From positions 165,974,001 through 166,038,000 of the forward strand of contig OZ038378.1 of the NCBI GenBank assembly GCA_964036045.1: 64,000 nucleotides of DNA, given 5' to 3'. A program made the translations under genes and the position numbers. Source of the DNA: Eutreptiella sp. 'Long Island Sound 2002'. Its lineage: Eukaryota > Protista > Euglenida. This document shows, piece by piece, positions 7,709 to 64,000 of this stretch. Within the stretch, counting starts at the first letter, position 1, and each line of letters opens with the position of its first letter. The notes beneath the pieces were generated by a model. That model worked only from the letters and a program-made list of their open reading frames with translations, was not told the DNA's origin and made no database searches.

Positions 7709-7729
7709 GATGAAATGAAGCAGAGGCGT

Positions 7730-7753
7730 GAAAAAAAATAGACAATCAGAAAA
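7730..7753 (-). other. Relict euglenid spliced-leader (SL) sequence
   Basis: The minus strand reads TTTTCTGATTGTCTATTTTTTTTC(A). The euglenid SL as I recall it is ACTTTCTGAGTGTCTATTTTTTTTCG, giving 22/23 identity over the core and a terminal G>A. Confidence 0.8.
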
Positions 7754-26355: not shown

Positions 26356-26375
26356 CTGAAGTGAATTTTGTGGAC

Positions 26376-26500
26376 CACACCACACCACACCACACCACAC
26401 CACACCACACCACACCACACCACACCACACCACACCACACCACACTACACCACACCACACCACACCACACCACACCACACCACACCACACCACACCACAC
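26376..26500 (+). repeat. (CACAC)n pentanucleotide microsatellite
   Basis: Directly visible. Confidence 0.95.
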
Positions 26501-27816: not shown

Positions 27817-28286
27817 CTGCGTTCGGAGGGGGATGCTAGGGGCAGGGGCACGGACACCGGCAGATGAAGTGCGGGGCACAGACGGGACATGCGCAGGGCT
27901 GGCGACAGCGTGACGGCAGGGGCAGGGGCTGGGGCAGGCCAGGGCGAAAGAGGAAGCCAGACAGGCACAGGACAGAGGTAAAGCGGGGCAGGGCTGGGAG
28001 CAGCAGCAGGGGAAGGGGCAGGGGCATTATGGCGAGGCAGCACAGGGCAGGGGCAGGGCAAAGGCCGAGACGGGGTGGGGGGCAGGGAACAGGCAGGGGC
28101 AGCGGCTGGGGCAGGGGAAAGGGGCAGGAACTCCCCCCAATATCGGCCACCACCCGACCCTACCTGGGGGGATTGGCGGTGGGATGATCATGGCGAACGG
28201 GGCGGTTGGGACTCGTCCCAGCATCACCTAAACCCTGCTTCTACCTCCGACCAGGCACGCCCTTCGACCGCACCCCTGCCGCATAC

Positions 28287-40810: not shown

Positions 40811-40829
40811 TTTACTTTTTGTAAGATAG
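40811..40829 (+). promoter_or_regulatory. Candidate trans-splice acceptor for importin-4
   Basis: T-rich tract followed by AG (TTTACTTTTTGTAAGATAG), about 35 nt before the ATG at 40865. SL trans-splicing is inferred from the SL relic. Confidence 0.35.
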
Positions 40830-40864
40830 TTCGTGGCCGTGTGCCACCAAATCAACCCAACCCT

Positions 40865-42454: not shown

Positions 42455-42979
42455 GTTCTCCCCTTGCCAGTTTGTTTTTGCTTCAACGGGCCACTGCTTT
42501 GGGATCGGAAGGTGGTACAAAGAGCTGCTAAAGTCACATCGTAGCATTGCAGTGCATTTCTCCTTGCGGTGCTCTCCGGCAATTGGCCTGTGCTCGCACC
42601 GTAAATCCTCATTGACCCTCCGTTGCCCATTATTGGAATCCATATTCTACTCCCCTGAAACAGCATTTTTTCTTTTCGCGGTAAGGACACCCGTGCTGCA
42701 TGCTCTTGGGTCTAGCATTCCAGGGGAACGTTGCCACGCATTCGGGACACGCCCCAACGAGATTCTGACAGTGTCCCGACGACCCTTGCACACCCCAACA
42801 ACGTACATGTTGGGGCCAAAGCGGGTGCCCATGCCCCACGCCGCATTCTCCTCATTCAAAGAGGACGAGAGCAGGCTTGCGTAGCGTTCTCTAACCGACC
42901 CCAAGAGACGGGGTGCCTGTTGTTCGAAGATGGATGTATGTGGGCCGAAGTGACCCGCCAACATTCCTTCCTTGTTCAG

Positions 42980-43114
42980 ATCATGAGCAGCAGCGCTGAC
43001 GAGCATCTAGTCCTCAGAGCTCGGGCAACGGAGTGCGTTGGGGTGATCGGAGCCATGATGGGCAAGGAGAAGTTCCGGCCATACTTCGAAGTCTTTTTCC
43101 AACTCGCGATGCAG
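42980..43114 (+). CDS. IPO4: Importin-4, exon 2
   Basis: CTTGTTCAG|ATC...CAG|GTGGAC. Encodes DEHLVLRARATECVGVIG, an IPO4-type motif. Confidence 0.88.
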
Positions 43115-43496
43115 GTGGACCCGCACGCTTTGCGTGTGCATCGGATGTCAATCTGATCCACTCACGCTCGCATTTACTCACCCAATTTGCCCGGAGGATG
43201 CTTTTGAAACGGAGTCGGAGGGAGCATTCAATCGTGCCGCAAACGACTTTCACTGACCCGCAAATTCACTCACACATTCGCACCCTCACACTCACATTCA
43301 TCCAACACCCTCAGACTCACCCTCAGACTCACACCTTCACCGTCGCCCTCTCCCTCACTCTCACCATCATCCTCACTCTCACTGTTGTGAGGAACCCTCA
43401 CTCGTTGCATTTGGCGTTGCGTTTGCCACTCACGCGCACACCCACACTCGTCCTCGTCCTCACCCTCATCCTCACTCGCCCGTTTACCAACGCCAG

Positions 43497-43696
43497 GGTT
43501 TGGAGCTCGATTTCACGGAGCTGACGGAGCACGTGTTTGGCTTCCTCAAGAACATTGCAGAAGTGTACGGAGAGGAGTGGGTCGTGCATCTTCAGGCGAC
43601 CATGCCGCACGTACTTGAGGCAGTCGAAGAGGACGATGGCGAAGTAAGACCCAGAAAATCGGTGTTTGGAAACACCCAAATCGAGCTGGGCGACAG
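43497..43696 (+). CDS. IPO4: Importin-4, exon 3
   Basis: CGCCAG|GGT...GACAG|GTACCG (phase 2). Encodes GLELDFTELTEHVFGFLKNIAEVYGEEW. Confidence 0.82.
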
Positions 43697-44437
43697 GTAC
43701 CGCCTCCTGCGGCACTGTGCCCATTTCTGCCACCATTTCGGCGGCTCCCCTCGTGGCATACGAGGCATGTGACGTGCAGCACCGGCGGGAACACGCGAGG
43801 AGGCACGAGAGCGAGCAGCAGCGGGTGCACAACACGCCTGGGAGCATCGGAAGGTGCAACAGGGGACGGCCTGCAGATTACACAGTCGTGCTGCTTTTCT
43901 TCCGCTGCCAATCACGGCCGCGGGGGAAACGCGGGGAGGCCTGGGGTGGGAGGGATGGGGAAGGACCGGGGAGGACAAAAGAGGATGCGGGTGAGATGGG
44001 AAGCATGCCAGGAGGAATGCATAGACAGGACCCTGGAAGTGTCATTGGCGCCATTGATCCTTACTGCTCGTTGCCCGCATGACCTGCAAGGGTGGCTGTT
44101 ATGTTGTGGCCCCAACGAGGTCACTCACCCGCATGCAACTGCTCCGCTCGTGCTCTGAAGAGCAGTGTGGCACGTTGAATTTGAATGCGTGTGTGTTTGT
44201 GCGTGTATGTGTGTGTGCGCGCGCGCGAAGGGCTCAGCAGCTCACAGTGACCTGTTGAACATTGAAGCGACAGAAACAGCCGGCCTACGCCAGAAATCGT
44301 TCCATTTGAGCGGTTCAAGGGTTCGATGGGTCGTCAAATGAAGTATCGTGGAGGACTGGAAAGGATGTGAAGGCGGGACCCGCAAAAGCAGACCAGAAAG
44401 GGAGCATGCCCCGGTTATCGCCTGGCTGTGTCCCCAG

Positions 44438-44819
44438 TTCTGAGGACGATGATGAGGAGGATGAGGAGGACGATTCCGACGACGAGCCCGGCCGAATGCT
44501 GCGGGTGCGCGCTGATGATCTGGACAAAAAGGCTGCGGCAATCCACGCGGTAGGGATCTTCGCCAAGGCCACGAAAGCGCAGTTCCAGCCCTACTTAGAG
44601 ACGTCCTTCGAGAAGGTACTGGACTGCATCGCGTACTTCCACGAGAGCGTGCGGGAGAACGTGGTGTTCGCTATGCGGCACCTGACGAGCGTGGCGTACT
44701 GCATGCATCCGCCGTCGGAGCCCTGGCAGAAGGGCCTCCCCACCGTCGACACCCTGCATCCCGAGGCGCGCCGTGCCGTCGATCAGACCTTGAGTATTTA
44801 CCTCCAGAGGGCGGAGCAG
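44438..44819 (+). CDS. IPO4: Importin-4, exon 4 (acidic loop)
   Basis: TGTCCCCAG|T completes the phase-2 codon. Encodes SSEDDDEEDEEDDSDDE...DKKAAAIHAVG. Donor CAG|GTGTCT. Confidence 0.85.
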
Positions 44820-45502
44820 GTGTCTGCGTGCGCTGGTCTGCGTCGCAATGAAGTGAAGTCCCTGCATTTGTGACCCGCACCTGCAAATGCCCATCCATCG
44901 TTGATGCGGCCCCATGCCTCTGCAGGCACGTGCGCGCACGCACACGCACATCCAGCCACATCCCCGTGCACATACTCATCCACACAAACGTGCATTTCTA
45001 GATACCTTAAGACACACGCATCGCATCAATATGCTGTTCCTCCGGCCAGGGATCCCATGTACAAACGCGCCAAGAATTCGGCTACTACTACTGCGGCGAC
45101 TACTGACATACTCATGCACACCATAGGTCACACGCATTTGGTGGGTTTCTGTTTGGAAGAGCTGTGGGAACCATCCACCCATTCGGTTCGAATAGCTACC
45201 CCTGAAATGTGGGTGGATGCATTTCCCAAAGACCATACCCTTCCACAATGCTGACAAAGGCCCCAGGTGTTGCACAAGCCACAAGCCTGATGTGCCAATT
45301 CCACTCTGCTAACAGGGTCACGTTCGTGATGGTGCCAGGCATACCTGTTGTGCACTGGCTCTAGGATCCAATTATCGGCATGAAGGAGGGAATTGAATCG
45401 GGGTGAAATTTGCATGTGCAGTGTGGATATGCATGTGCATGTGCATTTGCATGTTATAGGGATGCGCGTGTCTTCTGCCTGTGCATGCGTGCATGATTGC
45501 AG

Positions 45503-45862
45503 GAGGAGAGCAAAGAAGTGGTAAAAATTATATGTGATTCCATCGCGGAGATTGCCAAAGAGATGGGACCTGTGGCAGTACACAAACACATGGACCAGAT
45601 CATGAAGCTGTTATTCGCGCTGATGAAGCAGGAGAGCTTCTGTCAGTCGCTGCCCTGCGACGAGTTCGAGGATGAGGACGACGAGCAGGACCACGACCAA
45701 GTGCTGATCGATGCGGTGTTTGAGACTGTGGACGAGTTGGCGAAGGTGTACGGCCCAGGCTTTGCGCAGCTTTGGCAGTCTTTGCTGACGGTAGTCCTCA
45801 CGTACCTGCACCCGAAGAAGCCATATTCGGACCACGTCATGGCCCTTGGAACGCTGGCAGAG
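45503..45862 (+). CDS. IPO4: Importin-4, exon 5
   Basis: GATTGCAG|GAG...GAG|GTGTGC, 360 nt. Encodes EESKEVV...EQDHDQVLIDAV...DHVMALGTLAE. Confidence 0.88.
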
Positions 45863-46460
45863 GTGTGCCCATATCTGCTGCTCGCTCCAATGGCTACGGG
45901 GGGATGCAAAATCGTGTCACTGATCATTTCACAAGCACAAGCACAACCACAAGCACAACCACAACCACAACCACAATCACAACCACAACCACAACCAACT
46001 CGTCCACTTTGGGAATCGTCAAAACAAGCCGTCCATTCACTACTGTTCCATGTGTCCAATGATGGTTTTGGATTGATGGTGGGCAAGATTTGTCCTACAG
46101 GCCTCTCTGCTGCATGATTCCTGTGTTGGCGTTTCCCGGGCGTCGGGGATACGAGTCGTTTGTGTGTGGCCAAGGACCCCAGGTATTTGGCAGTGATACC
46201 CCAGGTATCCTGGTATTTGGCGGTGAACGATTAATTGCAATCAACGGACGACGGTATCGGCAACCAAAACAAAAAGCAGTTGAAGGCTGGTGTGGCATTT
46301 TCTTCAAGGCTTTTGGCAGTGAAGTAAAAATCTACCTGCTGTGATGGAATTCTTGTTTCAGGCCCGCTTCAAGGCGCCAATTTGATGTATTAGTGTTACA
46401 GGGCAGCAACTGCGTTTTAAATCAGGAGAATGCGTTGTTCCTGTACACGTGCGTCTGCAG

Positions 46461-46751
46461 GTCGCCAATGCCATGGGCGAGGCTATTCAGCCTTTCTTCG
46501 ACCAAATGTTCCCCGTGATGCTGCAGATGCTGCAGAGCCCAGACGCGGGGACCCGCAGCAACGCAGCGTACGGCCTGGGCGTGATGTGCCAGAGCTGCAC
46601 ACTGCAGGCGACGCCCCACTTCGGAACCGTGCTGCAGGGGTTGCGGCCCTGCCTTGAGGTCCAGAAGAACCGTAACGACTGCGTGGACAACGCGTGCGGG
46701 GCCGTAGCCCGCATGATGATCGCAAATTTGGAGGCTTGCCATTTTGAGCAG
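46461..46751 (+). CDS. IPO4: Importin-4, exon 6 (last exon found; no stop codon reached)
   Basis: GTCTGCAG|GTC...CAG|GTGTGC, 291 nt. Encodes TRSNAAYGLG...CVDNACGAVARMM. Confidence 0.88.
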
Positions 46752-47180
<429 letters not shown>

Positions 47181-47837
47181 TTGTCTGCCTAGAGGGGCAT
47201 TCCGCTTCGCTTCACAGGTGGACAATTTCAACGCTGATGGACCGATGGACACAGGTGTGTTTCCTTTTTTTTTTTTTTTTTTCAAAAAAAAACAAAACAA
47301 ACAAAGAAATGGACAAACGGTAAAACACAGGGTTAGCCACCAACCAAATGTTTGAGCACAGAAACAGGCGATTTAAAATGGATGATTTCAAAAACGAAAA
47401 AACAAGAAAAGATAAACAAAACGCAAAGGGCCATTTTCAGCCCCACACCCCACCCCGGCATGGACGTTCACCCCACGCCATTTTTAACCAAAACCCTTTT
47501 ATGTAATTACATCTGTTTACCACCCCCCTGCTTGAGGGGTCCGTTGTCACGGGGGGCTACTAGTCTTGCCCTGCGATGCAATGCGGGACAACTGTGACAA
47601 CGGGCCCCGCTGGTGGCGTCTTGGGGTTAGGGTAGCGAAGCTTGCCCCCGGCGGTGACTTGTACTGGGTTACAGCGCCATACGGCGTACCTACCTGAAAT
47701 TTTTGGGATGACGCTGTGGCCTGCTAAGTAGTTCCAATATCCATGCATGCATCGGGCAAAAAGGAAAACACAATGGGTGGGGCATGTGTGGGGCATGCCT
47801 AGTGCAGTGCAATACACACGTGGCCGACAAGATGGAG

Positions 47838-48110
47838 TAAATCCCCCAAGTGATCAGGGGGTCCCCCATGTGCGCAGGGGTTTTTTCAATGGGGACGACC
47901 CACGAATGAGTGGGGGGGCGTTGTCCCCAGGGGCCACATCTGTAAATCCCCCAAGTGTTCAGGGGGTCCCCCATGTGCAAAGGGGGTACTTTTGATTTCA
48001 TACAACGGGGATGACCCACGCAAGAGTGGAGGGGCGTCATCCCCGGGGGCCACTTCTGAAAATCCCCCGGGTGTCGGGGGTCCCCCATGTGCACAGGGGG
48101 TGACCTATTG
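47838..48110 (+). repeat. Tandem repeat of about 105-115 bp, about 3 copies (AATCCCCC...GGGGGTCCCCCATGTGC)
   Basis: The GGGGTCCCCCATGTGC anchor recurs near 47858, 47963 and 48077. Confidence 0.7.
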
Positions 48111-48199
48111 GAACGGATCCCCCTCCTCAACTCCCCAGCAAGGACTCGCATGGGGAGTTGCTTCAGGAGGGGTCGGTAAAAATTAGAAACCTGCCGGGT

Positions 48200-51100
48200 G
48201 AGGGTTTCAGTGCCTTTTTGCAGCCTTTGAGCAGCAGGTTTTTTGCCTGCCATAGGGCAGCATGTCGCTTTGCTCCCACAACATACCATGTTTTTAGCGG
48301 TCACTGAGAAGCAATATTTTTCGCTGCAACTGAGTGGCATGCTGTTTTGCTGCCACAGAGTGTCAGGCTTTTTTGCAGCAACAGAGTAGCATGCTCTTTT
48401 GTTGCTACAGCGCAGCAGGCTTTTTGCTGCCCCAGAGCAGTGTGTCCTACTGCTGCCACTGAGCAGCAGGCCTATTAGCAGCACTGAGGAGTAGTCTCCT
48501 GGCTACCATTAAGCAGCAGAGTTTTTTTTTGCTGCCACTGAGCAATAGGCTTTTTTGTGGTCACTGAGCAGCGGAGTTTTTTTACTGCCACAGAACAGCA
48601 GGATTTTTACTGCCAAAGAGTGGTAGGCCTTCTTGCTGCCACCAAGAGGCGTGCCCTTTTTGCTGCCACTGAGCAATGTTTAGTTGTTGCCGCTAAGTAG
48701 CATGCCTTTTTGCTGCTACTGAGCGTCAAGTTTTTTTGCTGCCACTGAGTGACAGTTTTTTGACTACCACGGAGCAGCCTGTCGTTTTATTGGCACCAAA
48801 CACTGCAGCCTTTTTGCTGTCACTACGCAGCACGCTTTCTGCTGCCACGGAGCAGTGTGTCAATTGGCTGCCACCGAGCGGCGTGCTTTCTAGCAGCATC
48901 AAAGTAGCAGGATTTTTGCTGCCACTGGGTGGCAGGCCTTTTTTGCTGCCACTGAGCGGCATGTAGGGGTAACCACAGAGTGCAGGCCTTTTTGCTGCAA
49001 CTGGGTAGCAGGCCCTTTTCCTAGCGCTGAGCAGCAGGCTTTTTTGCTCTCAAAACCGTCAATAGTTGTAATTACGCAGCAAGCTATATGCTGCCAAGGA
49101 GCAGCAGGTGTTTTAGCTGCCGCGGAGTGGTGAAGCAACGTGCTGTCACAGAGTAGCAGGTTTTTTGCTGCCACAGAGTGGTGCAGCTTTGTGCTACCAC
49201 GGAGCAGCAGGTTTTTAGCTGCCACAGTGCAGCGGACTCTACAGCTACCATGCAACAGAGCAGCAGGGTTTTGGCAGCCACTGTGCGGCTGGATTTTGCA
49301 GCCACTGAGTAGCAGGTGTTTTCCTGTCACACTGTAGCACCAGTAGTACCAGTTTTTGTTGCGACTGAGCAGCAAGCTACTTGCTACTACTGAGCGAAAA
49401 GCTTTCTGCGGCCACTGAACACAAGTTTTTTTTTTACTGCCGCTAAGCAGCATGCTTTCCAGCTGCCACAGAACAGAGGTATTTCTAGGCGGCCACTAAG
49501 CAGAGGGACTTGAGCGGCCATGGAGGAGCGAGCATTTTTTGCTGCAGTTGGGGGTTTCTAGCAGCCACAAAACAGATGGCTTTTTTGAGGCCCCTGACAG
49601 GCAGGCTTCTTAGCAACCTCGGGATGCCAGGCCTTTTGTGGCCACAGAGCAGCAAGGTTTTTGGCTGTCACGAAACAACAAGCTTTTTTACAGCCAATGG
49701 GCAGCAGGACCATTGTGGTTGTAGAGCCGGCCCTAGGTCCGCTGGGGGACTAGTACCCAGAGTAGGGGTGCAAAGGAGGCAGCCCAAGGTCCACTGGGGG
49801 ACTAGTACCCAGAGTTGGGGCGTGACTGAGACGGCCCTAGGTCCACTGGGGGACAAGTACCCAGAGTTGGGGCGCGACCGAGACGGCCCAAGGTCCACTG
49901 GGGGACGAGTACCAAGAGTTGGGGCGCAACTGAGACGGCCCTAGGTCCACTGGGGGACTAGTACCCAGAGTTGGGGCGCGACTAAGACGGCCCTAGGTCC
50001 ACTGGGGGACTAGTACCCAGAGTTGGGGCGCGACTGAGACGGCCCTAGGTCCACTGGGGGACAAGTACCCAGAGTTGGGGCGCCACTGAGACGGCCCTAG
50101 GTCCACTGGGGGACAAGTACCCAGAGTTGGGGCGCGAATGAGACGGCCCTAGGTCCAATGGGGGACGAGTACCAAGAGTTGGGGCGTGACTGAGACGGCC
50201 CTAGGTCCACTGGGGGACGGGTACCTAGAGTTGGGGCGCGACTGAGACGGCCCTAGGTCCGCTGGGGGACGAGTACCCAGGGCGCGACTGAGACGGCCCT
50301 AGGTCCACTGGGGGACTAGTACCCAGAGTTGGGGCACGATTGAGACGGCCCTAGGTCCGCTGGGGGACTAGTACCCAGAGTTGGGGCGCGACAGAGGCAG
50401 CCCTAGGTCCACTAGGGGACTAGTACCCAGAGTTGGGGCGCGACTAAGACGGCCCTAGGTCCACTGGGGGACGATTACCCAGAATGGGGTACGGTTGGGA
50501 CGGCCCTGGGTCCACTGGGGGACTAATACCCAGAATTGGGGCGAGACAGAGCAGCAATTTTTGCGCTGCCACAGAGCGTCGTGTGTTTTGTGTTGCCGTA
50601 GTGAACGTATTTTAGTTCTGCCACACAGTAGCGTGTGGTGTGGGCTGCTACAGAGCAGCAGATTTTGACTGTTGCCATGGTGCAACGCTTTTTTAGTTTG
50701 TTTTTGTGTTTGTGCTATAATATTGTTTTTGGTGACTCTGTTTCTTGTGCGGCATTTTTTTTTTGTGCTATCACAATGCCGCATTTTCCATGTACAACCA
50801 CAGTGCAGTGTGCAGTTTTTCAGTTTCTGCTGCCTCAGTGCGGCATGTTTTTTCAGTGCTGCCACGGTGCAGTGTGTGTTTTTTGTGCAGCCAGAGGGCG
50901 GCATGTTTGGGCTTTTTGCTTTGTGCTGCCTCAGTGCAGCATGTTTTTTGTGTGCTGCCGCAGGGCATGGTTTTTTGTTGTTCTTGTTTTTTGATTTCTG
51001 TGCTACCACAGGGCAGCATGGTTTTTGTGCCGCCGCAGTGCAGCGTGTTTTTTGTCCAGCTGCAGCTGCAGTGCTGCAGTATTTTTTGTTTTTTTTTTGC

Positions 51101-54100
51101 AATGAGCGATGAGGGTTTTTTTGTTGTTGTTGTTTGTATTTGTTTTTTGTGATGCCACATTGTTTTGGGCCCACCATTTCTAGTTCCGCGAGTGTCTAGT
51201 GCTGCCCCAGTGCAGCGCATTTGTTGTGCTGCTACAATGTAGCATATTATGGTGTTGCAATGCAGCGTGTTATGGGTGTTGCCACAGTGCATCAATTTTT
51301 TTTTGGTTTTTGTTTTTTCTGCTACCAAAGCGCGGTGTGTTTTTGTGCTGTTGCAATGCAGCGGTTTGTATGATGCCACATTGCAGCGGGCTTTTGGTTC
51401 TGCCGCGGTACAGCATGTTTTTTTGTTGGTGTTGCCACAATCCAGCTTGTTTTTGTGATGCCGCAGTGCAGCGTGTTTTGTGTGCTGCCACACTGCGGCA
51501 TCAAATTTTGTGCTGCCATGGCACAGCTTTTTTATGTAGCTGCCATAGTGCAGCATGAAATTGTGTGCTGCCACGGTGCAGCGCTTATTGCTGTGCTGCC
51601 ATAGTGCGGCTTGTTTCGTGCAATGGTGCGGTGCTGCATGTTCTTTGTGTTGTCATAGTGCTGGGTATTTGTGTGCTGCCACAGGGCAGCGTGTTTTTTT
51701 GTTCTGCCACAGTACAGCATTGTTTTTTTTGTTTTGTTAGTGCGGCCACGGTGCAGCTGTTTATCTTCCTTGTGTTTTCTGCTGCCGCAGTGCAGCGTAT
51801 TTTTTGTGTTGCCACCGTGCAGCTTGTTTTTGTGCTGCCGCACTGCGGCATGGTATTTGGCGCTGCCACAGTGCAGTGTTTTTTGTGTTGCTGCCTATTT
51901 TTGTGCTTCCACTGTGCTGTGTGTTTTTTGAGCTGCCGCAGGGCAGCGTGTTATTTGTGCTGCCAAAGTGCAGCCAGTGTTTTGTGCTGCTGCAATGCTG
52001 TTTTTCTTTCTTTCTTTCTTTGGCTGCTACAGTGCCACAACAATCGGGACCAAATGGTGTCATGGGCCCATTGGGAGCCCAATACCCCAGGTGCAGGTGG
52101 GGGTGCGGCTGGGATGCACCCCAAGTCCACTGGGGGACAGGTACCCAGACTTGGGGTGCAACAGGGACACACCCTAGGTCCGCTGGGGGACGAGTACCCA
52201 GAGTAGGGGTGTGACAGCCACAAAGTAGTATGCCCTTTAGCCGCCACGGAGCATGCGGCTTTTTTGTAGCGACATGGTGGCATGCCTTTTTTGCGGCCAC
52301 TGAGTAGCCGTCCTTTTAGCTATCGCTGATCGCTGATCGTTGGGCCTTATAGCTGCCACTGAGCAGTATGCTTGTTTGTAGCCATTGGCTTTTAGGCAGC
52401 CACGGATCATGGTTTTTTGCTGGCGCAGCGGGCTTTTTTGTTGCCGCGGCGGCATGCCCTTTGCAGCCACTACTCAGCGAGCTTTTTGCTGCCGTTGAGC
52501 ACCAAGGTTTTTGCTGCCACGAGGTAGCTGGCTTTAAGCGGCCACTGAGCAGCAAGCTATTGCTGAGCAGCAGGTTTTTTAGCAGCCACTGCGCGTGGGC
52601 CTCTTTGCTACCACTGAGTAGCAGGCCGTTATGCAGCCACCGGGCACCAGCCTTTTAAGCTGCATAGAGCAGCGGCGTCCGTTGCTATCATAGGGCAGCA
52701 GGGTATTTTGCTACCATTGAGCAGCAGGATTTTTGCAGCTTAAAAGTAACAGGGTTTTTGCGACCATTGAGTTGCAGGCCTTCTTGCTGCCACTGAGCGC
52801 CAGCCTTTTTTGATGCATGGAGCAATGGGGTCTTTTGCTGCCATAGGGCAGCAGGGTTTTTTGTTGCCGCAGAGCAACGGGGCTTTTTGCTTCTTCTAAG
52901 CAGCTGGGTTTTTTGACTGCCAGTGAGCTTCTGACCCTTTTGCAGCCATAGAGCAGGAGAATTTTTGCTGCCATTGAGCAGTGGGCCTTTTCGCGGCCAC
53001 TGGGCAGCATGCCTTTTTGATGCCACTGAGCAACAAGTCTTTAATTTGCAGCTACGTAACAAGCTCCTTTGCTGTCACCGGGCAACAAGCCTCTTTGCTG
53101 CACCAAGGTAGCATGCTTTTATGCTGCCACCGAGCCATGGGCCTTATTGTTGCCACAGAGCAGCATGTCCAATTACTACCACAGATCGCCAAAAATTTCT
53201 GCTGTTCTGAGCCACAGAGCCATAGAGCAGCAGGGTTTTTCTTAGCTGCCGCAGCACAATGGGCCTTTGTGCTGCCAATGAGCAGGAGGGTTTTTGCTGC
53301 CGCAGAGCACCAGGCCATATTGCTGCCACACACTGGCGGCGTTTTTCGCTGCCATTTAGCGGCAGGCTTTTTTGCTGCCCTAGGGCAGGTTTTGTTTTTC
53401 CTCAGTCACTGAGCAGCAAGCTTTTTCACAGCAACTGAGTAGCATGCTCTTTTGCTGCCACTGAGCGGCAGGCTTTTTAGCTTCAACTGAGTAGCATGCT
53501 CTTCTGCTGCCACTGAACAGCAGGCCTTTTTGCTGCAACAGAGTAGCATGCTCTTGTGCTGCCGCTGATTGGTAGGTTTTTATGGGCACTGGGCAAGAGG
53601 CCTTTTTCGCTACCACAGTGCGGCAGACCTTTTTGCTGCCATGAGCAGCAGAACAATTTTTGATTTCTTTTATTTTTTATTTTAATTTTTTTTTTGCTGC
53701 CACCGAGCAGCATGTCCCTTTGCAGCCACTGAGCACCAGGCCATTGTGCTTCACTCGGCAGCGTGCTGTTTTGCTACCGTTGGGCAGCGGGGTTTTTTGT
53801 TTGCTGCCACTGAGCAACAGGCCTTTTTTGCAGCCACTTAGCAGCAGGTTTTTGCGTACCAGAGAGCAATATGTCGTTTTGCTGCCATTGTACCCCATGC
53901 TTTTTTGCCGTCACAGAGCACCCATTCTTTTGCTGCAACTGCGTGGCATGCTGTTTTGCTGCCACTGGGCAACAAGCTCTTTTGCTGCAACTGAGCAGCG
54001 TGCTTTTTTGCTCCCACGGCGTGCTTTTTTGCTCCCACAGCGTGTCAGGCCTTTAGTGCAACCACGTGGCATGCTCATTTGCTGCCACTAAGCAACAGGG

Positions 54101-57100
54101 CTTTTGCGGGCATAAGCAGGGGGCTTTTTGCTACCACACAGCAGATGGATCCTTTGCTGCCACAGAGCAGCATGTCTCTTTGCTGCCACTGAGCGCCAGG
54201 CTTTTTTGCGGCAAGTGAGGAGCATGCTCTTTTGCTGCCACAGAGTGTCAGGCTTTTTAGCAGCAACTGTGTGGCATGCTCTTTTGCCGCCACTGAGCTG
54301 CGAGCTTTTTTCCTGCCGCAGAGCAGCGAGTCCTTTTGCTGCCACCGAGCAGCAGGCCTGTTTGCTGCACCGAGGAGCGGTCTCCTTAGCTACCATTGAA
54401 CAGAAGGTCCTTTTTTTGCCGCCACTGAGCAACGGGCCTTTTTGCGGCCACTGAGAAGCGGAGTTTTTTACTGCCACAGAGCAGCGTGTTTTTTGCTGCC
54501 AAGGAGCGGTGGGCTTTCTTGCTGCCACGACGAGGCATGTTTTTTGGCTGCCACTGATCAACAGGCTTTGTTGTTGCCACTAAGTAGCATGCCTTTTTGC
54601 TGCTACTGAGCGTCAGGTTTTTTTGCTGCCACTGAGTGGCAGTTTTTTGCCTACCACAGAGCAGCATGTCGTTTTGCTGCCGCTAAACACCGCGCCTTTT
54701 TTGCTGTCACTACGCAGCACGCTTTTTGATGCCACAGAGCATCTTGTCCTTTGGCTGCCATTGAGTGGCAGGCCTTTTTTGTTGCCATTGAGCATGCTCT
54801 TGTGTTGCCACTGAGCGCAAGCCTTTTTGCTGCAGATGTTTGTAGCAGGTGTTTTCCTGTCACTGTGTAGCCAGTTTTTGCTGTGACTGAGCGGCACGCT
54901 GCTTGCTACCACTGAGCAATAGGCTTTTTGCTGCCACTGAACGCAAGCTTTTTGGCTGCCGCTGAGCAGCATGCTTTCCTGCAGCCATAGAATAGAGGGC
55001 CTTTTGGCGGCCGCTACCCAGTGGGATTTTTGCGGCCACGGAGCAGCGGGCATTTTTGCTGCCACTCAAAAGCAAGCTTTTTGCTGCCGCCGGGGCTTTC
55101 TTGCAGCCACAGATCGGCAAGCTTCTTGGCAACTTCAGTGCGCCGGGCCCTTTGGTGCCACTGAGCAACATGTTTTTTTGCTGTCACGAAACAACATGCT
55201 TTTTTGCAGCCAATGGGCAGCGGGCCCTTTGCTGTCACAGGGCAGCGGGCCTTTCTTTTTTCTTTTTTCTTGTTTATGTAGCCACTCAACAGAGGGGCTT
55301 TTTGCTGCCGCAGAGCAGCGTGTTTTTAGCCTAGCTGAACCGCGGGCCTTTTTGCCGTTGGGTAGCAGCCCTTTTTGCTGCCACTGAGCAGCAGGCTCCT
55401 TTGCTGCCATAGGGAGGCTCGCTCCATTGCTGCCGCTGACCAGAGTACCCTTTAGCTGCACTAGGTAGCACGGTTTTTCGCTGCCACTGAGCAGCAAGCT
55501 TTTTTGCAGCTATTGGGCGGCAGGGTCTTTAGGTGCCACATAGCAAGGCAGTAGGGTGTTTTGCAACCATCGAGCGGCAAGCTTTTTGGTAGCCGCTGTG
55601 CAGCACGATGATTTGTAGCCACTGAGTACCGCGCTTTTTTGCGACAACCAACAGTGGGCCTTGTTGCTGCCACTGAGCAGCAGGACCTTTAGTAGCGGCT
55701 GAGCAACAGGTCTGTGTGCTACCGGTAAATTGCAGGCTTTTTTGCGACCAAGGACTAGCGAACCGTTTAGCTGCCACCAAGTGGCAGGTCTTGTTGCTGC
55801 CACTGAGCGGCATACCTTATAGTGGCCACTAGCTTTTTGGCAGCCACGCAGCTGCACGGCTCTTTGCCGCCCAAGAACCACAGGCTTTTAGTAGGTTTTC
55901 TGGAGCGGCGGGCTTTTTGCTGCCGCAGAGGAGCAAGCCCTCGTGCTACCACAGAGTGGCAATTTTTTTTTTGCTGCCACAGAGTAGCAGGTTTTGGCAG
56001 CCAAAGGGTGGCATGTCCTTTGGCTACCGCTGAGCGGCAGGGTCTTTTGCATTGAATGGTAAGCTTAGTAGTTGCCACTAGGCAGCGTGCATTTTTGCCG
56101 CCACCGAGCAACAGGTTTTAGCTGCCACTGGGCAGCCTGCCTTTCTGCTGCCACTTAGCAGCAGGGACTTTTATTGCCATAGAGCGGCAAGCTTTTTAGC
56201 AGCCATTGGGCAGCAGTCTGTTTTTGCTGTCACCTAGCAGTGTGTTTTTATTTGCTGCCACCGAGCTGCGAGTTTTTGCAGCCACTGAGCGGCATGCCTT
56301 TCTGAAGCGACTGGCCAGCAGGGTCTTTTGCAGCTATTGAGCGACAAGCTTTTTAGTTGCCGTTGAGCAGCACGCTTTTTAGGTGCCACTGGGGAGCGGA
56401 TCTTTTTGTGGTCACCTGGCAGTGTGCTTTTTTGCTGCCACTGAGCAGCAGGTTTTGCAGCCACCAAGCACAAGGTTATGCGGCCACAGAGCGGTGTGTC
56501 CTTTTGCTACAGGTGTGCACGAGGCTTTTTTAGCTATCACTAGGTTAGGGCTTTTCTTTAGTTTTTGTTGCAGCAGGGCTTTTTGCTGTAAGTAAGCGTA
56601 AGTAAGCGGTGTGCTTTTTTTGGTGCCGTTGAAAAGCATGCTTTACTGCTGCCGCTGAGCAGCATGCCATGCGGCGGCCACAGCACAGCACACCACAGAG
56701 TGGCAAGTTTTTAGCTGCCAGTAAGAAGCAAACTTATTGGCTGCCGCTCAGCAACAGGTCTTTTTGCTGCCATTGAGCAGCGTGCCTTTTTGCTGCCACT
56801 GAGCAGCAAGCTTTTTCGTTGCCAATGAGTAGCAGGTCTTTTTGCTGCCACTGAGCAGTGTACTTTTTGACAGCAAGCCTTTTTTGCTCCCGATGGGCCG
56901 CAAGCTTTTTAGCAGTGGCGGAGTCGCGTGTTTTTGCTGCCACTCAGCTGCATGCCTTTAGCTACCACCGCGCGGCGTGTCTTTTTGCTGCCGCTGAGCA
57001 GCATGCTAAATAGCTGCCACTAAGCAGCAGGCTTTTCAGCCGCCACTAAGTGGCAGGCTTTTTGCTGCCACAGAGCATCAGGGATTTTTGTTGCGGCTGC

Positions 57101-58500
57101 GCAGCACCCTTTTTAGCAGCCGCAAAGTCGCAAGTTTTTGCTACCACTGAGCAGCATGCCTCTCTGCTACCGATGAGCAGCGTGCTTTCTAGCTGCCACT
57201 GCGCTGCAAGCTTTTTAGCTGCCACTGAGCGGCATGCCTTTTTGCTGCCACTGAGTAACAGATCCTTTGTTGCTGCTGTGCAACGTGCCTTATCACTGCC
57301 ACTGGGTGGCAGCAGGCCCTGCTGCAGTTGCGCCGCAGCATGCCTTTCTACTGCCACTGGGCAGCAGGGGCTTTTGCTGCCACTGAGCGGCAATTCGTTT
57401 GGATACCAGTGAGCGGCAAGCGTTTTAGCTGCCATAGAGCAGCAAGCTCGTTAGCTGCCACTAAGTGGCAAGCTTTTCTGTTGCCATTGAGCAGCATACC
57501 TTTTTGCTGCAGCTCCGCAGCATGCTTTTTTGCTACCACTGAGTAGCGAGGTTTTTGACTGCTGCTAAGCGGCACTTTTTTTAGCAGTCACTGAGTAGCG
57601 GGCTTCCTTGCTGCTACTTTTTTTTGGCCGACACTGAGCACCAGGCTTTTTTGCTTTCACCTAGCGGTGTGCAGTTTGCTGCCACTGAGCAGGTTGGGGG
57701 TTGCCAGTGAGCACCAGCTTAAATGGCCACAGGGCAACATGTCCTTTTGCAGCCGGTGTGCAGCAGGCCTCATGATGGCGCTAAGCTGCAGGCTTTTTGG
57801 TGCCTCTAGCCAGCTAGTTTTTTGCAGTCACTAAGCAGCATGCTTTTTCGCTGCCACTGAGCAGCACGGCTTTCTGCTGCCACAGAGGAGCATGCCTTTC
57901 TGCTGCCATTGAGTAGTAGGGGCCTTTGTTGGAACTGAGTGGCAAATTGTTTAGCGACCGTTGAGCAGCAAACTTTTTAGCAGCCACTGGGCAGCAGGTC
58001 TTTTGTTGCCACTGCGCATCAAGCTTGTTAGCGGCCACTGAGTGGCAGGGTTTTTTGCAGCCACTGGGCAACATGCCTTTGTGCAGCCGCAGAGCAACAG
58101 GCGCTTTAGCCGTCTCTAAGTAGCTAGTTTTTGCTGCCACTGAGCGGCATGCCTTTTTGTTGCCGCTGAGCTGTATGCCTTTTTGCAGCCGCTGAGCAGC
58201 GCGTTTTTTAGCTGCCATCGAGCAGCAAGCTTTTTTGCAGCCACTGAGCGGCAGGCCTCTTTGCTGCCGCTGGACACGGTGCCTACTTGCTGCCCCTGAG
58301 CAGCAGGTTTTTGTAGACACTGAGCAGCGGGTTTTTTGTAAGCACTGAGCAGTGGGCTTTTTTCCTGCTCTTCAGCAGCACCCCTTTGTGCTGCTGCTGA
58401 GCAACAGAGGCTTGGATGCCACTGAACGGCGGCGGTCGCTTTTGCCGCCACAGGGCACCGTGGTGCAGTGCAGCAGGTTTCCTACTGCTGCAGTGCTGCG
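48200..58500 (+). repeat. About 10.3-kb degenerate satellite of roughly 25-27-bp units (TTTTTGCTGCCACTGAGCAGCAGGC); a TG-richer variant occupies 50560-52030
   Basis: Continuous recurrence of GCTGCCAC/CTGAGCAGC with oligo-T spacers, all in one orientation. Confidence 0.93.
49729..50543 (+). repeat. 52-bp minisatellite, about 15 copies (GGCCCTAGGTCCACTGGGGGACTAGTACCCAGAGTTGGGGCGCGACTGAGAC); 2-3 more copies at about 52060-52210
   Basis: Unit starts at 49833, 49885 and 49937 give a 52-bp period. Confidence 0.93.
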
Positions 58501-58847
58501 CAAGCCAGTGTTAGCGGTGTAGGTCCGCCACACTCATAGGCCCCTCTAAGTGATGGAGGCTTGCGCAGCAGAGGCTGTTGTTGTAGTGTTGTTGTTGCTC
58601 TGTTCAGACAACAGAGGGGACAGGTATTTTCGAAAACTACCCTTTTCCGGATTTTTGGTGGCCAGTTTTCTCGACACGCACGCCAGCACATTTTTTTTTT
58701 GTGGTTTTTTCGGGTTGTTTTTTATATTTTACAAAATCGTTCTCCCACGCACCCATCTTGTACAGGTCCATCGGTGCACGGTCCATCCAGAACGGAATGA
58801 TGCGCCTCCGGGTAAGAGGGCTACGGGGCCTGCGTGTATACCGTCCC

Positions 58848-58867
58848 CAACAACAACAACAACAACA

Positions 58868-58904
<37 letters not shown>
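58848..58904 (+). repeat. (CAA)n(TG)n microsatellite abutting the apparent 5' end of the Penelope-like element
   Basis: Directly visible. Confidence 0.9.
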
Positions 58905-58906
<2 letters not shown>

Positions 58907-59348
58907 CGGGTGGTTACACCCGTCTCCAGCTAAGTACCTCCAGAGTAGACATGTAAGTAGCGCTGCGGTTTTCAATAGATCATACAATCATTGGCTAGAC
59001 AGGGCCAGACAGTGGGCAGGGTCTGTGGTGATCAGCGCACAATGCACTGTGAGAACAAACTCCTCTTCACCGTCACCCCTGTCGCAGAAAGGACCTTGCC
59101 TACCTTTTTGTTAATGGCCTGATGAAATTGTCTCGGTGACCAGTGCTCTGCCTTCGCTTGCTTTCGTCTTCACTGACGTTGTGCCCCGCGTTTGGTCCCC
59201 ACTGGTTTTCCCGCACGAAGTGTGTGGTCTGCTGTTGGCACGCCCCCCAGTGTCCGTTCGGCAGTTTGCGTTTTGTTGAAGACATCTCCACGCTTGGCGC
59301 TGCTTCGTCTACTCCACTAATCTCGTTTCTGTATCCTCCGACCCTCTC

Positions 59349-60754
59349 ATGGCCGACCCCCCTATTATCTGCCGCCGATGTCACAAAGGCGGGCACCATG
59401 CCTCTGCCTGTCCAGAAGCTAGCACCGGCAATCGCTCGGAGTGAGGAGGCCGCGGCCCCCCACCATCAAAGTGTTGGACCTGTGAGCTGATCGATGGCGC
59501 TGATGCAAACCACTGGGGAGATGAGTGTCCAGTAGCCGCACAGCGACTGAAGGATCGCCAATGCACCCTATGTGGTTCGCCAGACCACTGGAAAAAAGGA
59601 TGCCCCAGATACGAAGCAGACAAACATAAGGCCCGCAACCCCACAACCACCTACTGGCCCACCGGTCCCAAGCGATCAGCAATCTCATGGTGCCTGCGCT
59701 ACGGAGTCAAAGGGGAACACCCCACAATGGATTGCACAGCCGCCGGTCCCCCAATCATCTGTCTGACGCCTCCGATGCCGACGATCTGCAGGATGTCTGC
59801 CTCTGGTGCTCCATTAAAGGCCACTCCCATCAATCCTGCATGCGCCGAGCTCCAATCCAGGCAAAAGAAAATGCTACAGCTATTGCGGGTCTAACAGATC
59901 GCGTGGATGCCCTACAAAAATCCGTCACAGACTGCAATGCCTTGTCAAGAAAAGTGTCCACATTGGAGGGACATATGTCCAGCTTAATGACCTGGAAGTC
60001 AGCTACAGAGGGCCGCTTGACGGTTTTGGAGTCCTGGCAGTCCTCTGCCAACAATAAATTCGTCGCCCGGTCCAGCTTTGATGCATTCGTGGAAGAAAAA
60101 TTCACCCCGACGCAACGACAGGCCGCTACAGCAGTAGCAATATCGACCTTCGATGAATTTGTCAACACGCGCTTCCTCCCAACTGAACAACAGGCCTCGG
60201 CATCTCTTCCAACGGAATCGTTCAACGACTATGTCATGAGAATGGAACATGCGGGGTTCAAACCAGCTGACGAGGACACACCAATGTCAACGGCACGGCT
60301 CACGGGCGCCCCACGCATGGCTTCGGAGTCGCAGGAGATCGGTAGCCCAGGGCAAACGGCAAAGGAAAGAGCGGCAAAGCGTGCCCACACTCCGTCTGGC
60401 GCCGGCGGTGCAAGCTCCTCGTCTTCAGTGTTCGCCACGCCGGCCTCCCGTATGCAAGCAGGGGCAGCTGCGTTTGGTGGAGTCTCACCTCCGAGTGCGC
60501 CGTGGCTAGCGCTGAAACCTACAGAAAGCTCTCAGTGGTCAGACGACGCCCTTGACCTGCTATTTAGCGAATGGACAGCCCATATGGACTCCAGATTGCA
60601 GCAGTGCGCGTCGAAGCATCTCCAGGGTGAAATGAAGAGCACGGTGGAAACCCTGGCCCGTGATACGTGGTCACCGGAGAAGAAGCGTGGCATCTCTGCA
60701 GTGTTGACAACATCTCGAGTTCCAGTGCGCCTGTTCACCAATTTAAATCGGTAG
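59349..60754 (+). pseudogene. ORF1 of the element: five zinc-knuckle-like motifs plus coiled coil (about 468 codons; one TGA at 59442 and one frameshift near 59750 in this copy)
   Basis: CRRCHKGGHHASAC (59370), CWTCELIDGADANHWGDEC (59472), CTLCGSPDHWKKGC (59562), CLRYGVKGEHPTMDC (59691) and CLWCSIKGHSHQSC (59798), then heptad-like IAGLTDRVDALQKSVTDCNALSRKVSTLEGHMSSL. Confidence 0.8.
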
Positions 60755-63700
60755 GGGAGGGGGGAGATCATTTTCTGTTTCGGGCGTCCTCACCCCCGCA
60801 GACATGCAATGAGGGCCCCCCCGTAGACAGTTTGGTCAGCACCATGCTCTCCCTCCAGTGGATACGGCAAAAAATGGGTCTTGCCTCTTACATAGTCCAG
60901 CAAACATCAGAGTTCGTCTCCCATCTGGACACCCACGCATATTATCCGATGGACATGACACACACCGGTGATCCAATCCACAACACACGTAACCGTATCA
61001 ACGCCCTATCCCATTGTGACTCCCAAAGCAGTGAGCGTGCCTTATGTGACAAACGACACACCGACAACGTAGCCGGACAGTGGGCACATGCTTCGCCTCC
61101 GCCCCCCCTGCAGGCACAACCATTCAGAGATATACAGTGTTCCAAGGTGCCTGGGTGGGTTTTCCGCAGAGTATGCCACACCCTCTCCGCGGTCAGTGGA
61201 TGGTCCACACCACACGGGTGGCTTACAGCATGTCACATCCAATGGGACAATCCAGCGACACGGCTGATACACTCCTCCTCCTCCCCCCACGTCCTGACAT
61301 CTTGGGACGAATGCAGCTCCGTACTCCCTCTGCCCTCCCCCCTCCCTGACCCCCTGCAACACCTGTGGATTTGGGCCCCAGCATCTGAGGTCCCAGCGGT
61401 GCAATACCACTTCCCCCAAATGTCCACTGTGGGTTGGTTCAGGACTTCACAGCCCATTCACCTCATGACCTCGTCCAGTGCCCTGGATGCATGTGACAGC
61501 ATCCAAATACACCGTCTGCACCTGTTGTTGTCGCATGAAGGATCGAGCCTCTTGGTCCACCAACCCCCACCTCAGAGCACCAATGTCCTCAGAGCTTTAC
61601 GTATCCAGATGTCACGAGCCCTGTCGGATAAAAATCTTGGTAGATGGGCAGCACTCCACCAACGAAGGATATCCTACCTCCCGTACAACACGCATGCAGC
61701 GCTCAGGATGGCTCGCAGGTTGAGCCACGTCCACGTCTGGTACACTCATGTAACACCCCCCCAGTACGCAGTATACTTAGTATTCCATATATATCTCCAC
61801 CTTGTGTATGTGGGCGTCACAAGCAAAGCACTGATCGTTCGCCTCCGGAAACACCAAACAGACGCGTCGAGTTTCCAAGATTGCTCTACACTCCACCGAT
61901 TAATGTTGCAAACGGACAGTGCCCACTCGGGGATCATCCCCTTGCAATTCATGAGTGATGAGTGGTACGCCAGCGTCAGGGAGCGACACTGGTAGTTTGT
62001 GTTCAAAAAATGGGCCTGAAACGATGTTGCGCCAGGCATTAGCACCGAGGGGCAAGGGTCGGGACCACGGGGATGGCCGAACCAACGAGTCCTGCAAGTC
62101 CTGCACAGCATGAAAGAGGCCCGACAGATAAAGGATTTCCCGCGACTTAAATTTCTGCAGCAGGACCTTCACAGTCTGGCCTCGCAGATGAGTGTACCAC
62201 TGTACTCCGTAGGCAGTATCATCGTCCCGAATCTGCAGCCATCTCAGAAAAGTGCTATTCACAGAGTCACCCGAAAAATGATTGCTTCTGTTGCCAGCCC
62301 CGCATGGGAAAAACAGGCCCTGGCTAAGGCCATACGGGTCGTCCGCAGTAGCCCTGTAAACGTCCGCCGCGTTTTTGAGCAACACGCTCGGCGATTCGAT
62401 AAGTTAGGCGACCAGCCCCCATGCAAGTGTCTCACAGCACCAAAATTCCCGGGGGTCTCCACAGTCATCGATGGACACATAGCGTACACACCACTGTGGG
62501 TGCCTACCTGAGACACCTATGCCCGTCCCAACGACCCCCTACCCCTCAGCGGCTCCTCCGTCCGCTCCCACCTCCTCTCTGACCTGAAAAAGATGGCGGA
62601 TCAAATCGGTGCATGTCTTCCACCCCTCGAACTCATGCTCCCAGACTCCCTGTGGCCAGAGACGGGCCACAAGCTTACGCAAGTCAGGAAATTTGCCAAG
62701 TCGGTCTGTCAGTCCCACTATGTCCGCATCGTCGACAAGGGGGTGGGAGTCCTATGGGCATTCTGCCGCCACTGGGTATGGGGCATCATCCAACAGTTCC
62801 TGAAGAGCGAAGGCTACACCCCGTCCCCTAAAACGTTGCCCCAAGCCATGGCCTTCGTCTCTGCAGAGCTCGACGCCAGAGGCTGGGACCGCAACACAGC
62901 CGGTCAACTTCCCCTCCTCTATCTCCTGGGCAAATTCAAATCACTGGCTAAGGGTAAATGGCTCTGGCGCGGCATTACCTCCCTCCCCCAACCCCTGCTA
63001 CCCAAAAAATCGCTGCGCATCGCCGCACGGGCCAACACAGCCTTCCTCCGACTCCTGTGCCAAGAAGTCCCCTGCTGTTTTCTAGCTCAGAGCATCTCAG
63101 AAGTAAGCCAATGGTTCCACTGGTTAGACACGATAAACGCCCGGTTCATTAGTGAGGTGGATTGCAAGGACCAATTCAATAATATATGCCCCACAGACAT
63201 AGAATCGCACCTGACGGCAGCCAGCAAGTGGCTCGCCAAACGCCGCAAGTGGCGCATGACAGATATTGAGTGGTCCATTCACAAAGACTCCAAAATGCTC
63301 GACAGAGCGGGACGGGCAAAAGCAACGAAATTCTGGTACATCACCCACGCCCAAATGTCAGACACAATCACGTTTGAAATGCACTGCAATAACTTCATCA
63401 GAGCAGTGGGAGGGTTATGGTGCCGCCACGGTTGCATTCCAATGGGCGGTTCTTTTTCAGCCCAGGCAGCCGATCTGCACAACCTATGGCAGGTATATTC
63501 AAATCGCCACCTCCTGCGCCGCCTAGGCTCCCTCACTGTTTCCGAGGCAGGGTTCCCCTACTGGGAGTCCCCGCAGGGGATAACCGCCCTATGTCAATTT
63601 AGAGACAACATCCTGATTGCCACCACCAACCCAGACACCACCTCCCACCCCATCGTCTCTACAGTGTGTAACCTGCTTGGCGAGGCATGGAACCTGGATG

Positions 63701-64000
63701 TGCTCTGTGAGTGTATGTCGGGGCCAGGGGACCCCTGCAAACATCACTGCCACTCAGCGTCCACCACAGCCCTCGGCTTTGACATGATTCGGGGGGAAAC
63801 GGGTAAAGGACTAGCGTACCTACACCCCAGCGCGCTCTCATCAACCTGGAGTTTGAAGAGTGCACCCCCCCTCCTGTCCCCTGCAAGCGCCTATCCCGCT
63901 TACCTGCCGGGTATCATGACGGGCGCTTTGAGCAATGCACGCCCTTGGGCCACGACATGGGCAGGGGAGCTGCTGTCCCTCTCTGCTTGGTTACAGATAG
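60742..64000 (+). pseudogene. ORF2 of the element (about 340-aa unknown N-region, GIY-YIG, CxC, RT); one reading frame with three in-frame stops
   Basis: Hand translation of frame +1 shows no frameshift up to the window end. Stops occur only at 61993 (TAG), 62017 (TGA) and 62509 (TGA). The supplied ORF track misses 62512-64000 because that segment has no stop inside the window. Confidence 0.85.

What the first reader, a model, noticed from the sequence alone, without database searches (positions are those of the whole stretch)
60740..60800. In-phase -1 ribosomal frameshift signal joining ORF1 to ORF2
Seen: ORF1 ends AAT TTA AAT CGG TAG, which places T_TTA_AAT (60742-60748) in the canonical X_XXY_YYZ register two codons before the stop. 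A -1 slip enters exactly the ORF2 frame (FKSVGEGGDHFLF...). Five nt later a G-rich tract (GGGGAGGGGGGAG) begins that can pair with CCTCACCCCC at about 60789-60798. Known: a slippery heptamer, a 5-9 nt spacer and a structure drive -1 PRF in retroviral and LTR gag-pol. Inference: ORF1 and an ORF1-EN-RT fusion are made at a set ratio.
Basis: partly seen in the sequence, partly recalled or inferred. Interest (0 to 1): 0.85.

Follow-up and report, generated by a model that had tools for sequence, protein, structure and literature searches.

The report
Conserved frameshift in algal Penelope retroelement
A multi-copy jumping gene, likely from a euglenid alga, keeps its two reading frames one base out of step at a conserved slippery sequence, so ribosomes likely slip back one base there to fuse its zinc-finger protein to its nuclease and reverse transcriptase, a virus-style trick I did not find described for this branch of retroelements.

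Summary
T_TTA_AAT (60742-60748) is in the X_XXY_YYZ register of a zinc-knuckle ORF1, one codon before its stop. A -1 slip enters a GIY-YIG + RT ORF2. The element looks like a Chlamys-type Penelope-like retroelement, probably euglenid. This copy is dead (stops, a 1-nt deletion). The junction is not a defect: in 4 runs no contig has an indel there, whereas three tested breaks are absent from the other copies. ORF1 ends N-L-N-x-stop in 23 of 25 stored ORF1 ends of this type, including a family only 38% identical. The ORF2-frame peptide is conserved upstream of the first AUG. The same strands plus a second 10-bp stem form a predicted H-type pseudoknot whose stems avoid variation. Against: some copies have a broken heptamer, a sister lineage and distant families lack it, there are no compensatory pairs, and no RNA run was laid. 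A frame-joining intron or an own-AUG start remain possible. -1 frameshifting is about 75% likely. A frameshift with a pseudoknot is already drawn for another Penelope-like type, so this is a new variant.

The parts
58872..58903 (+). (GT)16 microsatellite at the element's 5' edge; ORF2 of other copies also ends in GT repeats
   Evidence: protein ends
58905..59012 (+). Start of a pseudo-LTR-like segment: the same sequence follows the ORF2 end in other copies
   Evidence: tblastn of the read-through tails of P0041 and P0050, 78-81% identity
59349..60754 (+). ORF1, about 467 aa when intact, with four CCHC-like knuckles; broken here by a stop at 59442 and a 1-nt deletion near 59758
   Evidence: (zf-CCHC E=0.016, below cut-off)
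60742..60748 (+). Slippery heptamer U_UUA_AAU in ORF1 phase (U_UUA_AAC in a subfamily)
60752..60754 (+). ORF1 stop (TAG; TAA in a subfamily)
60754..60766 (+). Predicted pseudoknot stem 1, 5' strand (G tract; register uncertain)
60775..60784 (+). Predicted stem 2, 5' strand
   Evidence: duplex -13.2 kcal/mol
60787..60797 (+).
   Evidence: duplex -17.2 kcal/mol
60820..60830 (+). Predicted stem 2, 3' strand
60844..60846 (+). First in-frame AUG of ORF2 (rival start); sequence conservation begins upstream of it
60742..64000 (+). ORF2 (-1 frame): unknown N-terminal domain, GIY-YIG (about 61765-61881), CxC, DKG, RT; stops at 61993, 62017, 62509 in this copy; runs off the window

Best explanation
This is the conserved ORF1/ORF2 junction of a multi-copy Penelope-like retroelement, where ribosomes likely slip back one base on U_UUA_AAU/C, probably helped by a predicted pseudoknot, and so would make a minority ORF1-nuclease-reverse transcriptase fusion. 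Shown: the phase, the heptamer, the lack of a junction indel in other copies, the conserved ORF1 end, and conserved ORF2-frame residues upstream of the first AUG. Inferred: most ribosomes read one more codon and stop, giving about 467 aa of zinc-knuckle ORF1. A minority stall at the structure 5-10 nt downstream, the Leu and Asn tRNAs re-pair on UUU/AAA, and translation continues into ORF2 to give about 1,670 aa. This would keep the RNA-binding protein in excess over the enzyme, as in gag-pol. The window copy itself is dead.
For: (1) No indel is listed at 60640-60765 among 38 contigs from 4 runs. Five listed contigs bridge the site with 31 or more letters on each side, and the deep X3 and X6 contigs overlap it from both sides without gaps (18 records and 8 substitution rows not shown). 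The copy's stop at 59442 and stop at 61993 differ at full depth in 4 of 4 runs, and the 59758 deletion in 3 of 4, with X1 uncovered there. (2) 14 of 16 own-family ORF1 ends are F-T-N-L-N-R-stop. N-L-N-[V/I/Q]-stop ends all 9 stored ORF1 ends of this type from other families, one family being 38% identical. (3) The heptamer's tolerated Z position varies (T>C in 5 X3 contigs, depth 116.6 of 613), giving U_UUA_AAC, which is named among the shiftiest heptamers in PMC5009743 (passage). TTA is only 10 of 136 Leu codons in the element. (4) There is no in-frame AUG before 60844, yet K-[S/P]-[V/I]..G-G, L-R-C/L-F-R and the helix before M-L-S-x-Q are conserved across families. A 9-nt insertion in this stretch keeps the frame. 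That Met is Ile in intact P0037 and Leu in the P0076 family. (5) The best H-type pseudoknot scores -28.9; 2 of 100 shuffles and 0 of 95 native windows do as well. The 19 listed variant sites avoid its stems (1-3 in 36-38 paired nt against 16-18 in 39-41 unpaired nt, p 3e-5 to 1e-3; third codon positions only, p 0.02-0.05).
Against: A broken heptamer (60743 T>A) is in one X1 contig holding 28.4 of 135.1 depth and one X3 contig (6.5 of 687). P0111 and P0112 end N-S-N-R and N-I-N-R, and P0103 reads C-K rather than F-K. A lineage sister to the own family ends F-V-N-A-A-A or N-V-Q-Q-T-V-R, and none of the 23 more distant ORF1 rows ends N-L-N-x-stop, so the signal is not universal. The invariance of the two heptamer-breaking synonymous sites is not significant alone (10 of 27 upstream third positions vary). 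No two-sided compensatory change was seen. Every listed variant that hits a modelled pair breaks it as drawn (60781 could re-pair with 60824), stem 2 overlaps conserved codons, and 8 variant rows were hidden. The heptamer DNA of other families is inferred from amino acids only. No run on record as RNA was laid.
Confidence: 0.75

Rival explanations
1. ORF2 is made as a separate protein from the AUG at 60844, by spliced-leader trans-splicing at an upstream AG (euglenozoan biology, recalled), by reinitiation after the ORF1 stop, or by internal initiation.
For: A Met at or near M-L-S-x-Q is present in most families. A pyrimidine-rich tract ending in CAG lies at 60771-60801. Sister lineages without the heptamer must use some other route.
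Against: Residues upstream of this Met are conserved in the ORF2 frame and the insertion there is in frame. The Met is Ile in P0037 and Leu in P0073/P0076. This model does not explain N-L-N-x-stop.
Confidence: 0.12
2. An intron removes the ORF1 stop and joins the frames, for example GT at 60751 to AG at 60830 or 60839. The G/C pairing would then be intron structure.
For: Twenty GT/GC-AG pairs would join the frames, two of them starting after the conserved R-x-F motif. Euglenid introns are often structured (PMC3935182, passages). PLEs can carry introns (PMC8557442 Fig. 1 legend).
Against: The putative intron is an open frame with conserved L-R-C/L-F-R. The GT and AG are not implied by the amino acids of other families. 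No such joint is listed in 4 runs of uncertain kind. No CAG/CTG nonconventional pattern gives the right frame.
Confidence: 0.07
3. The frame offset is real but the heptamer is incidental: N-L-N is kept for ORF1 protein function and ORF2 is reached by another recoding route.
For: Distant families keep separate ORF1 ends without the motif. Synonymous invariance is not significant.
Against: The rare TTA codon and AAT are both in register (about 3% by codon usage). The stop position is fixed at one codon. Variation avoids the predicted stems.
Confidence: 0.05
4. The offset is a 1-nt indel or assembly error in this decayed copy.
For: The copy has other breaks. One 176-aa fragment (P0183) reads from ORF1 into ORF2.
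Against: No junction indel in 4 runs. ORF1 proteins stop at this site. P0183 lacks two residues of the motif, so it looks like a deletion copy.
Confidence: 0.01

Closest known systems
[quoted passage not shown]
   Same: N-terminal GIY-YIG without CCHH, CxC, DK(G), RT, and an upstream gag-like CCHC ORF1 (section 9; supplement rows).
   Different: The paper gives no frameshift for them and does not mention euglenids (0 hits). Reading the Chlamys-2_cBra consensus by eye, ORF2 lies in the +1 frame with no slippery heptamer in the short overlap, and its RT has DD. Here ORF2 is -1, motif C is FRDN, there is a ~310-aa extra domain before the nuclease, and no hammerhead was found (Rfam).
Penelope-like types drawn with ORF1 separated by a frameshift and pseudoknot (Fig. 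1 legend of PMC8557442 and its preprint)
   Same: Same retroelement subclass and same proposed ORF1-to-RT coupling (legends).
   Different: The legend does not name the type and figures are not held. I recall it as the endonuclease-less, telomeric Athena elements (the 2017 paper was not held). This element has a nuclease and a zinc-knuckle ORF1.
Coronavirus 1a/1b-type signal (U_UUA_AAC plus H-type pseudoknot) and retroviral/LTR gag-pol -1 frameshifting
   Same: Heptamer class, short spacer, predicted two-stem pseudoknot, structural-to-enzyme ratio logic (PMC5009743, passages).
   Different: This is a non-LTR, telomerase-related nuclear element. Predicted loop 1 is long (8-17 nt) and stem 1 is a G-run/C-run of uncertain register. 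Nothing has been tested experimentally.

Membership tests
Canonical -1 programmed frameshift signal | X_XXY_YYZ heptamer in the phase of the upstream ORF, with the -1 frame open | tested here: met
Canonical -1 programmed frameshift signal | Frame offset and heptamer conserved across copies | tested here: met
   exceptions: one broken-heptamer variant and lineages without the motif
Canonical -1 programmed frameshift signal | 3' stimulatory structure 5-9 nt downstream | tested here: inconclusive
   Hairpin not above shuffles; pseudoknot 2 of 100 shuffles, variants avoid stems, no compensatory pairs; spacer 5 or 10 nt depending on register
Canonical -1 programmed frameshift signal | Measured transframe product dependent on heptamer and structure | not testable with these tools
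   needs a reporter, proteomics or ribosome profiling
Chlamys (N-terminal EN+ PLE) | GIY-YIG upstream of RT, without the CCHH cysteines | tested here: met
   PF01541 in 4 of 4 full ORF2s scanned, E 0.034-0.00022, all below the curated cut-off; alignment
Chlamys (N-terminal EN+ PLE) | CxC motif and DK(G) motif before the RT core | tested here: met
   alignment
Chlamys (N-terminal EN+ PLE) | Telomerase-related RT placed in the Naiad/Chlamys clade by phylogeny | tested here: inconclusive
   Fold search: top 12 hits are all telomerase RT, E 1.6e-8 to 2.1e-5 (model pLDDT 74.8); no tree with Chlamys sequences was built
Chlamys (N-terminal EN+ PLE) | Pseudo-LTR or tandem ends and (CA)n association | tested here: inconclusive
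   The 5' segment matches the 3' tails of other copies and abuts (GT)16; the 3' end is outside the window
Chlamys (N-terminal EN+ PLE) | Insertion in fingers domain | not tested
   the motif A to motif B spacing looks long but was not aligned to a reference
Reverse transcriptases generally | YxDD catalytic motif | tested here: not met
   FRDN in 61 of 63 stored proteins carrying the motif, never DD; it sits on the beta-turn of the model
LTR retrotransposon gag-pol | Protease, RNase H, integrase, LTRs | tested here: not met
   no such Pfam hits; GIY-YIG and a TERT-like fold instead

The most novel reading that the evidence does not exclude
A euglenid lineage of nuclease-bearing Penelope-like elements uses a coronavirus-type -1 frameshift (U_UUA_AAY plus an H-type pseudoknot) to dose a telomerase-related RT that works with an Asp-Asn active-site motif. 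Sister lineages have swapped this for other ORF1-ORF2 coupling routes, making the group a natural series for how recoding signals are gained and lost.
Probability: 0.5. Interest if true: 0.62.

Novelty: new variant of a known kind. Interest (0 to 1): 0.5.

Why it matters
If true, it extends heptamer-plus-pseudoknot frameshifting to the nuclease-bearing Chlamys branch of Penelope-like elements and to euglenid nuclear translation. It also gives a multi-copy, multi-family system in which the signal can be tested by covariation and reporters. It warns annotators that ORF2 of these elements has no start codon of its own. The invariant FRDN motif in a family with over 100 database members raises a separate question about RT catalysis.

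Tried and rejected
No whole genome is held for this window. Scans for DNA of related loci found no confirmed relative in viral contigs or metagenome contigs, so no DNA alignment or covariance model of distant families could be built. The window has no second copy. Rfam found 0 matches at E up to 5 in 58500-64000. PDB sequence search of P0037 found nothing significant. The long interrupted hairpin (the minimum-energy fold of 60749-60830) was rejected: 11 of 19 variant sites fall in its stems (p 0.6) and 8 of 13 changes break pairs. The AlphaFold model of the ORF2 N-terminal domain was unusable (pLDDT 39.8). P0250 is not an ORF1-ORF2 fusion (probability 0.9%). The Atlas gave GIY-YIG-type clusters for ORF2 as a lead only and did not answer for ORF1. 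Five look-ups of earlier findings gave nothing on this element. The homolog searches were length-limited and show cluster representatives plus at most 15 members, so rare fused forms could be hidden.

Full report
Observation. The window reads AAT TTA AAT CGG TAG at 60740-60754. The heptamer T_TTA_AAT (60742-60748) is in ORF1 phase, and the -1 frame is open from 60664 to 61995. The G tract begins 5 nt later, at the last base of the stop; the C tract is at 60788-60797. By composition an in-phase heptamer in the 29-codon overlap has a chance of about 0.03, so one copy proves little.

What the element is. ORF1 starts at 59349 and has CCHC-like knuckles (weak Pfam hit). ORF2 has a weak GIY-YIG hit, then CxC and DKG motifs, then an RT. 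Pfam misses the RT, but its AlphaFold model (pLDDT 74.8) matches telomerase RT in the top 12 hits. This order, the lack of CCHH cysteines, a (GT)16 run and a 5' segment that recurs after ORF2 in other copies fit the Chlamys group of Penelope-like elements in PMC8557442. Of that paper I read the abstract, sections 3 and 9, passages and parts of the supplement. Membership was not tested by phylogeny. The family is multi-copy: 104 members in the nearest ORF2 cluster and 35 in the ORF1 cluster, many probably from the window's own assembly. One member of a related family is labelled Eutreptiella braarudii by its source, so a euglenid host is likely but inferred. This copy is dead: stop at 59442, a missing base near 59758, and stops at 61993, 62017 and 62509.

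Is the offset a defect? No. I laid 4 of 21 listed runs, all as contigs and of uncertain or guessed-DNA kind; one may be the window's source. The stops at 59442 and 61993 differ at full depth in 4 of 4 runs and the deletion in 3 of 4 (X1 is uncovered there); the rows shown did not include 62017, and 62509 lay outside the stretch. No indel is listed at 60640-60765 among 38 contigs (18 records not shown). Intact ORF2 proteins of 1237 and 1227 aa begin in the -1 frame upstream of the heptamer. Of 25 stored ORF1 proteins ending in the F-[T/R]-N-x-x-x motif, 14 end N-L-N-R, 5 N-L-N-V, 2 N-L-N-I, 2 N-L-N-Q, and one each N-S-N-R and N-I-N-R. The N-L-N-V family is 38% identical. One fragment, P0183, reads from ORF1 into ORF2 but lacks two residues of the motif.

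Heptamer variation. The tolerated last base varies (U_UUA_AAC with a TAA stop, 5 X3 contigs, depth 116.6 of 613; also in X2). A broken heptamer occurs in one X1 contig (28.4 of 135.1) and one X3 contig (6.5 of 687). TTA is 10 of 136 Leu codons in the element. The invariance of the two synonymous sites that would break the heptamer is not significant alone, since 10 of 27 upstream third positions vary. A profile search gave 113 ORF1 hits, 40 reaching the C-terminus. In a 41-row tree of the last ~97 columns, N-L-N-x-stop occurs in two subclades of an 18-row group (support 91/95). A third subclade ends F-V-N-A-A-A or N-V-Q-Q-T-V-R, and none of the 23 more distant rows has the motif. The signal is lineage-restricted, and for other families the DNA is inferred from amino acids.

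Why entry is upstream of the first AUG. The first in-frame AUG is at 60844. Upstream of it the ORF2 frame keeps K-[S/P]-[V/I]..G-G in three families and L-R-C/L-F-R in five of the six families aligned, though not in the P0060 family. A 9-nt insertion in a subfamily keeps the frame. The Met itself is Ile in P0037 and Leu in the P0076 family. This favours entry at the heptamer over an AUG start.

Stimulator. A crude H-type search picked stem 1 (60754 with 60788) and stem 2 (60775 with 60820), matched by 2 of 100 shuffles and 0 of 95 other windows of the element. The 19 listed variant sites in 60754-60830 avoid these stems (p 3e-5 to 1e-3; third positions only, 0.02-0.05), and the insertion falls in loop 1. 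The alternative long hairpin shows no avoidance. Caveats: I proposed the model before seeing most variants but chose among registers afterwards; 8 variant rows were hidden; stem 2 overlaps conserved codons; no two-sided compensatory change was seen.

Mechanism. Most likely (0.75) a tandem -1 slip of the Leu and Asn tRNAs gives a minority fusion of about 1,670 aa beside an excess of about 467-aa ORF1; these steps are inferred. Rivals: an own-AUG start after trans-splicing or reinitiation (0.12); an intron such as 60751-60830 that would join the frames (0.07; euglenid intron passages in PMC3935182); an incidental heptamer (0.05); an indel (0.01). No RNA run was laid, so the first two are untested directly.

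Comparison. The Fig. 1 legend of PMC8557442 and its preprint already draws ORF1 separated by a frameshift and pseudoknot in a Penelope-like type, which I recall as Athena (the 2017 paper was not held). Two Chara Chlamys families have a zinc-knuckle ORF1 with no mechanism given; by eye, Chlamys-2_cBra has ORF2 in the +1 frame with no heptamer. PMC5009743 (passages only; first 300,000 of 449,034 characters held) lists U_UUA_AAC among the shiftiest sites and has no mention of Penelope or Euglena. PMC6431247 and PMC3846280 (passages) added nothing. Ten literature searches (listings only except as stated) found no report of frameshifting in Chlamys elements or of these elements in euglenids. The library omits most subscription papers, figures are not held, and preprint supplements are closed.

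Verdict. A real, conserved feature that is likely a -1 frameshift signal, and a new variant of a known kind. Interest 0.5.

Noticed in passing
window about 63606-63617 (RT motif C): The RT motif C is FRDN rather than YxDD in 61 of 63 stored proteins with the motif, across families down to about 40% identity; it sits on the beta-turn in the model. An Asp-Asn pair recalls the GDN of negative-strand RNA virus polymerases (recalled).
   Followed up: partly
window 60793-60804 and 60818-60829: A near-direct repeat means the stem-2 5' strand could pair with either copy, so hairpin and pseudoknot may be alternative folds.
   Followed up: partly
proteins P0165, P0180, P0195, P0060 family: Close lineages lack the heptamer-compatible ORF1 end, and one ORF2 family has a Pro/Ser-rich N-terminus instead, suggesting a different ORF1-ORF2 coupling.
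   Followed up: partly
window 60844-61765: A ~310-aa conserved domain precedes the GIY-YIG, with no Pfam or PDB match and an unusable model.
   Followed up: partly
window 58850-58903: (CAA)n then (GT)16 at the element edge; ORF2 of several families ends inside a GT repeat (C-V tails).
   Followed up: partly
window about 47700-58450: Long degenerate minisatellite tract directly upstream of the element.
   Followed up: no
window 40811-47189 (+), 25738-28026 (-), 5726-7903 (-): Host exons that by eye resemble an importin-beta-like protein, a cyclic-nucleotide-gated channel and a TPR protein (translations; names recalled, not tested).
   Followed up: no
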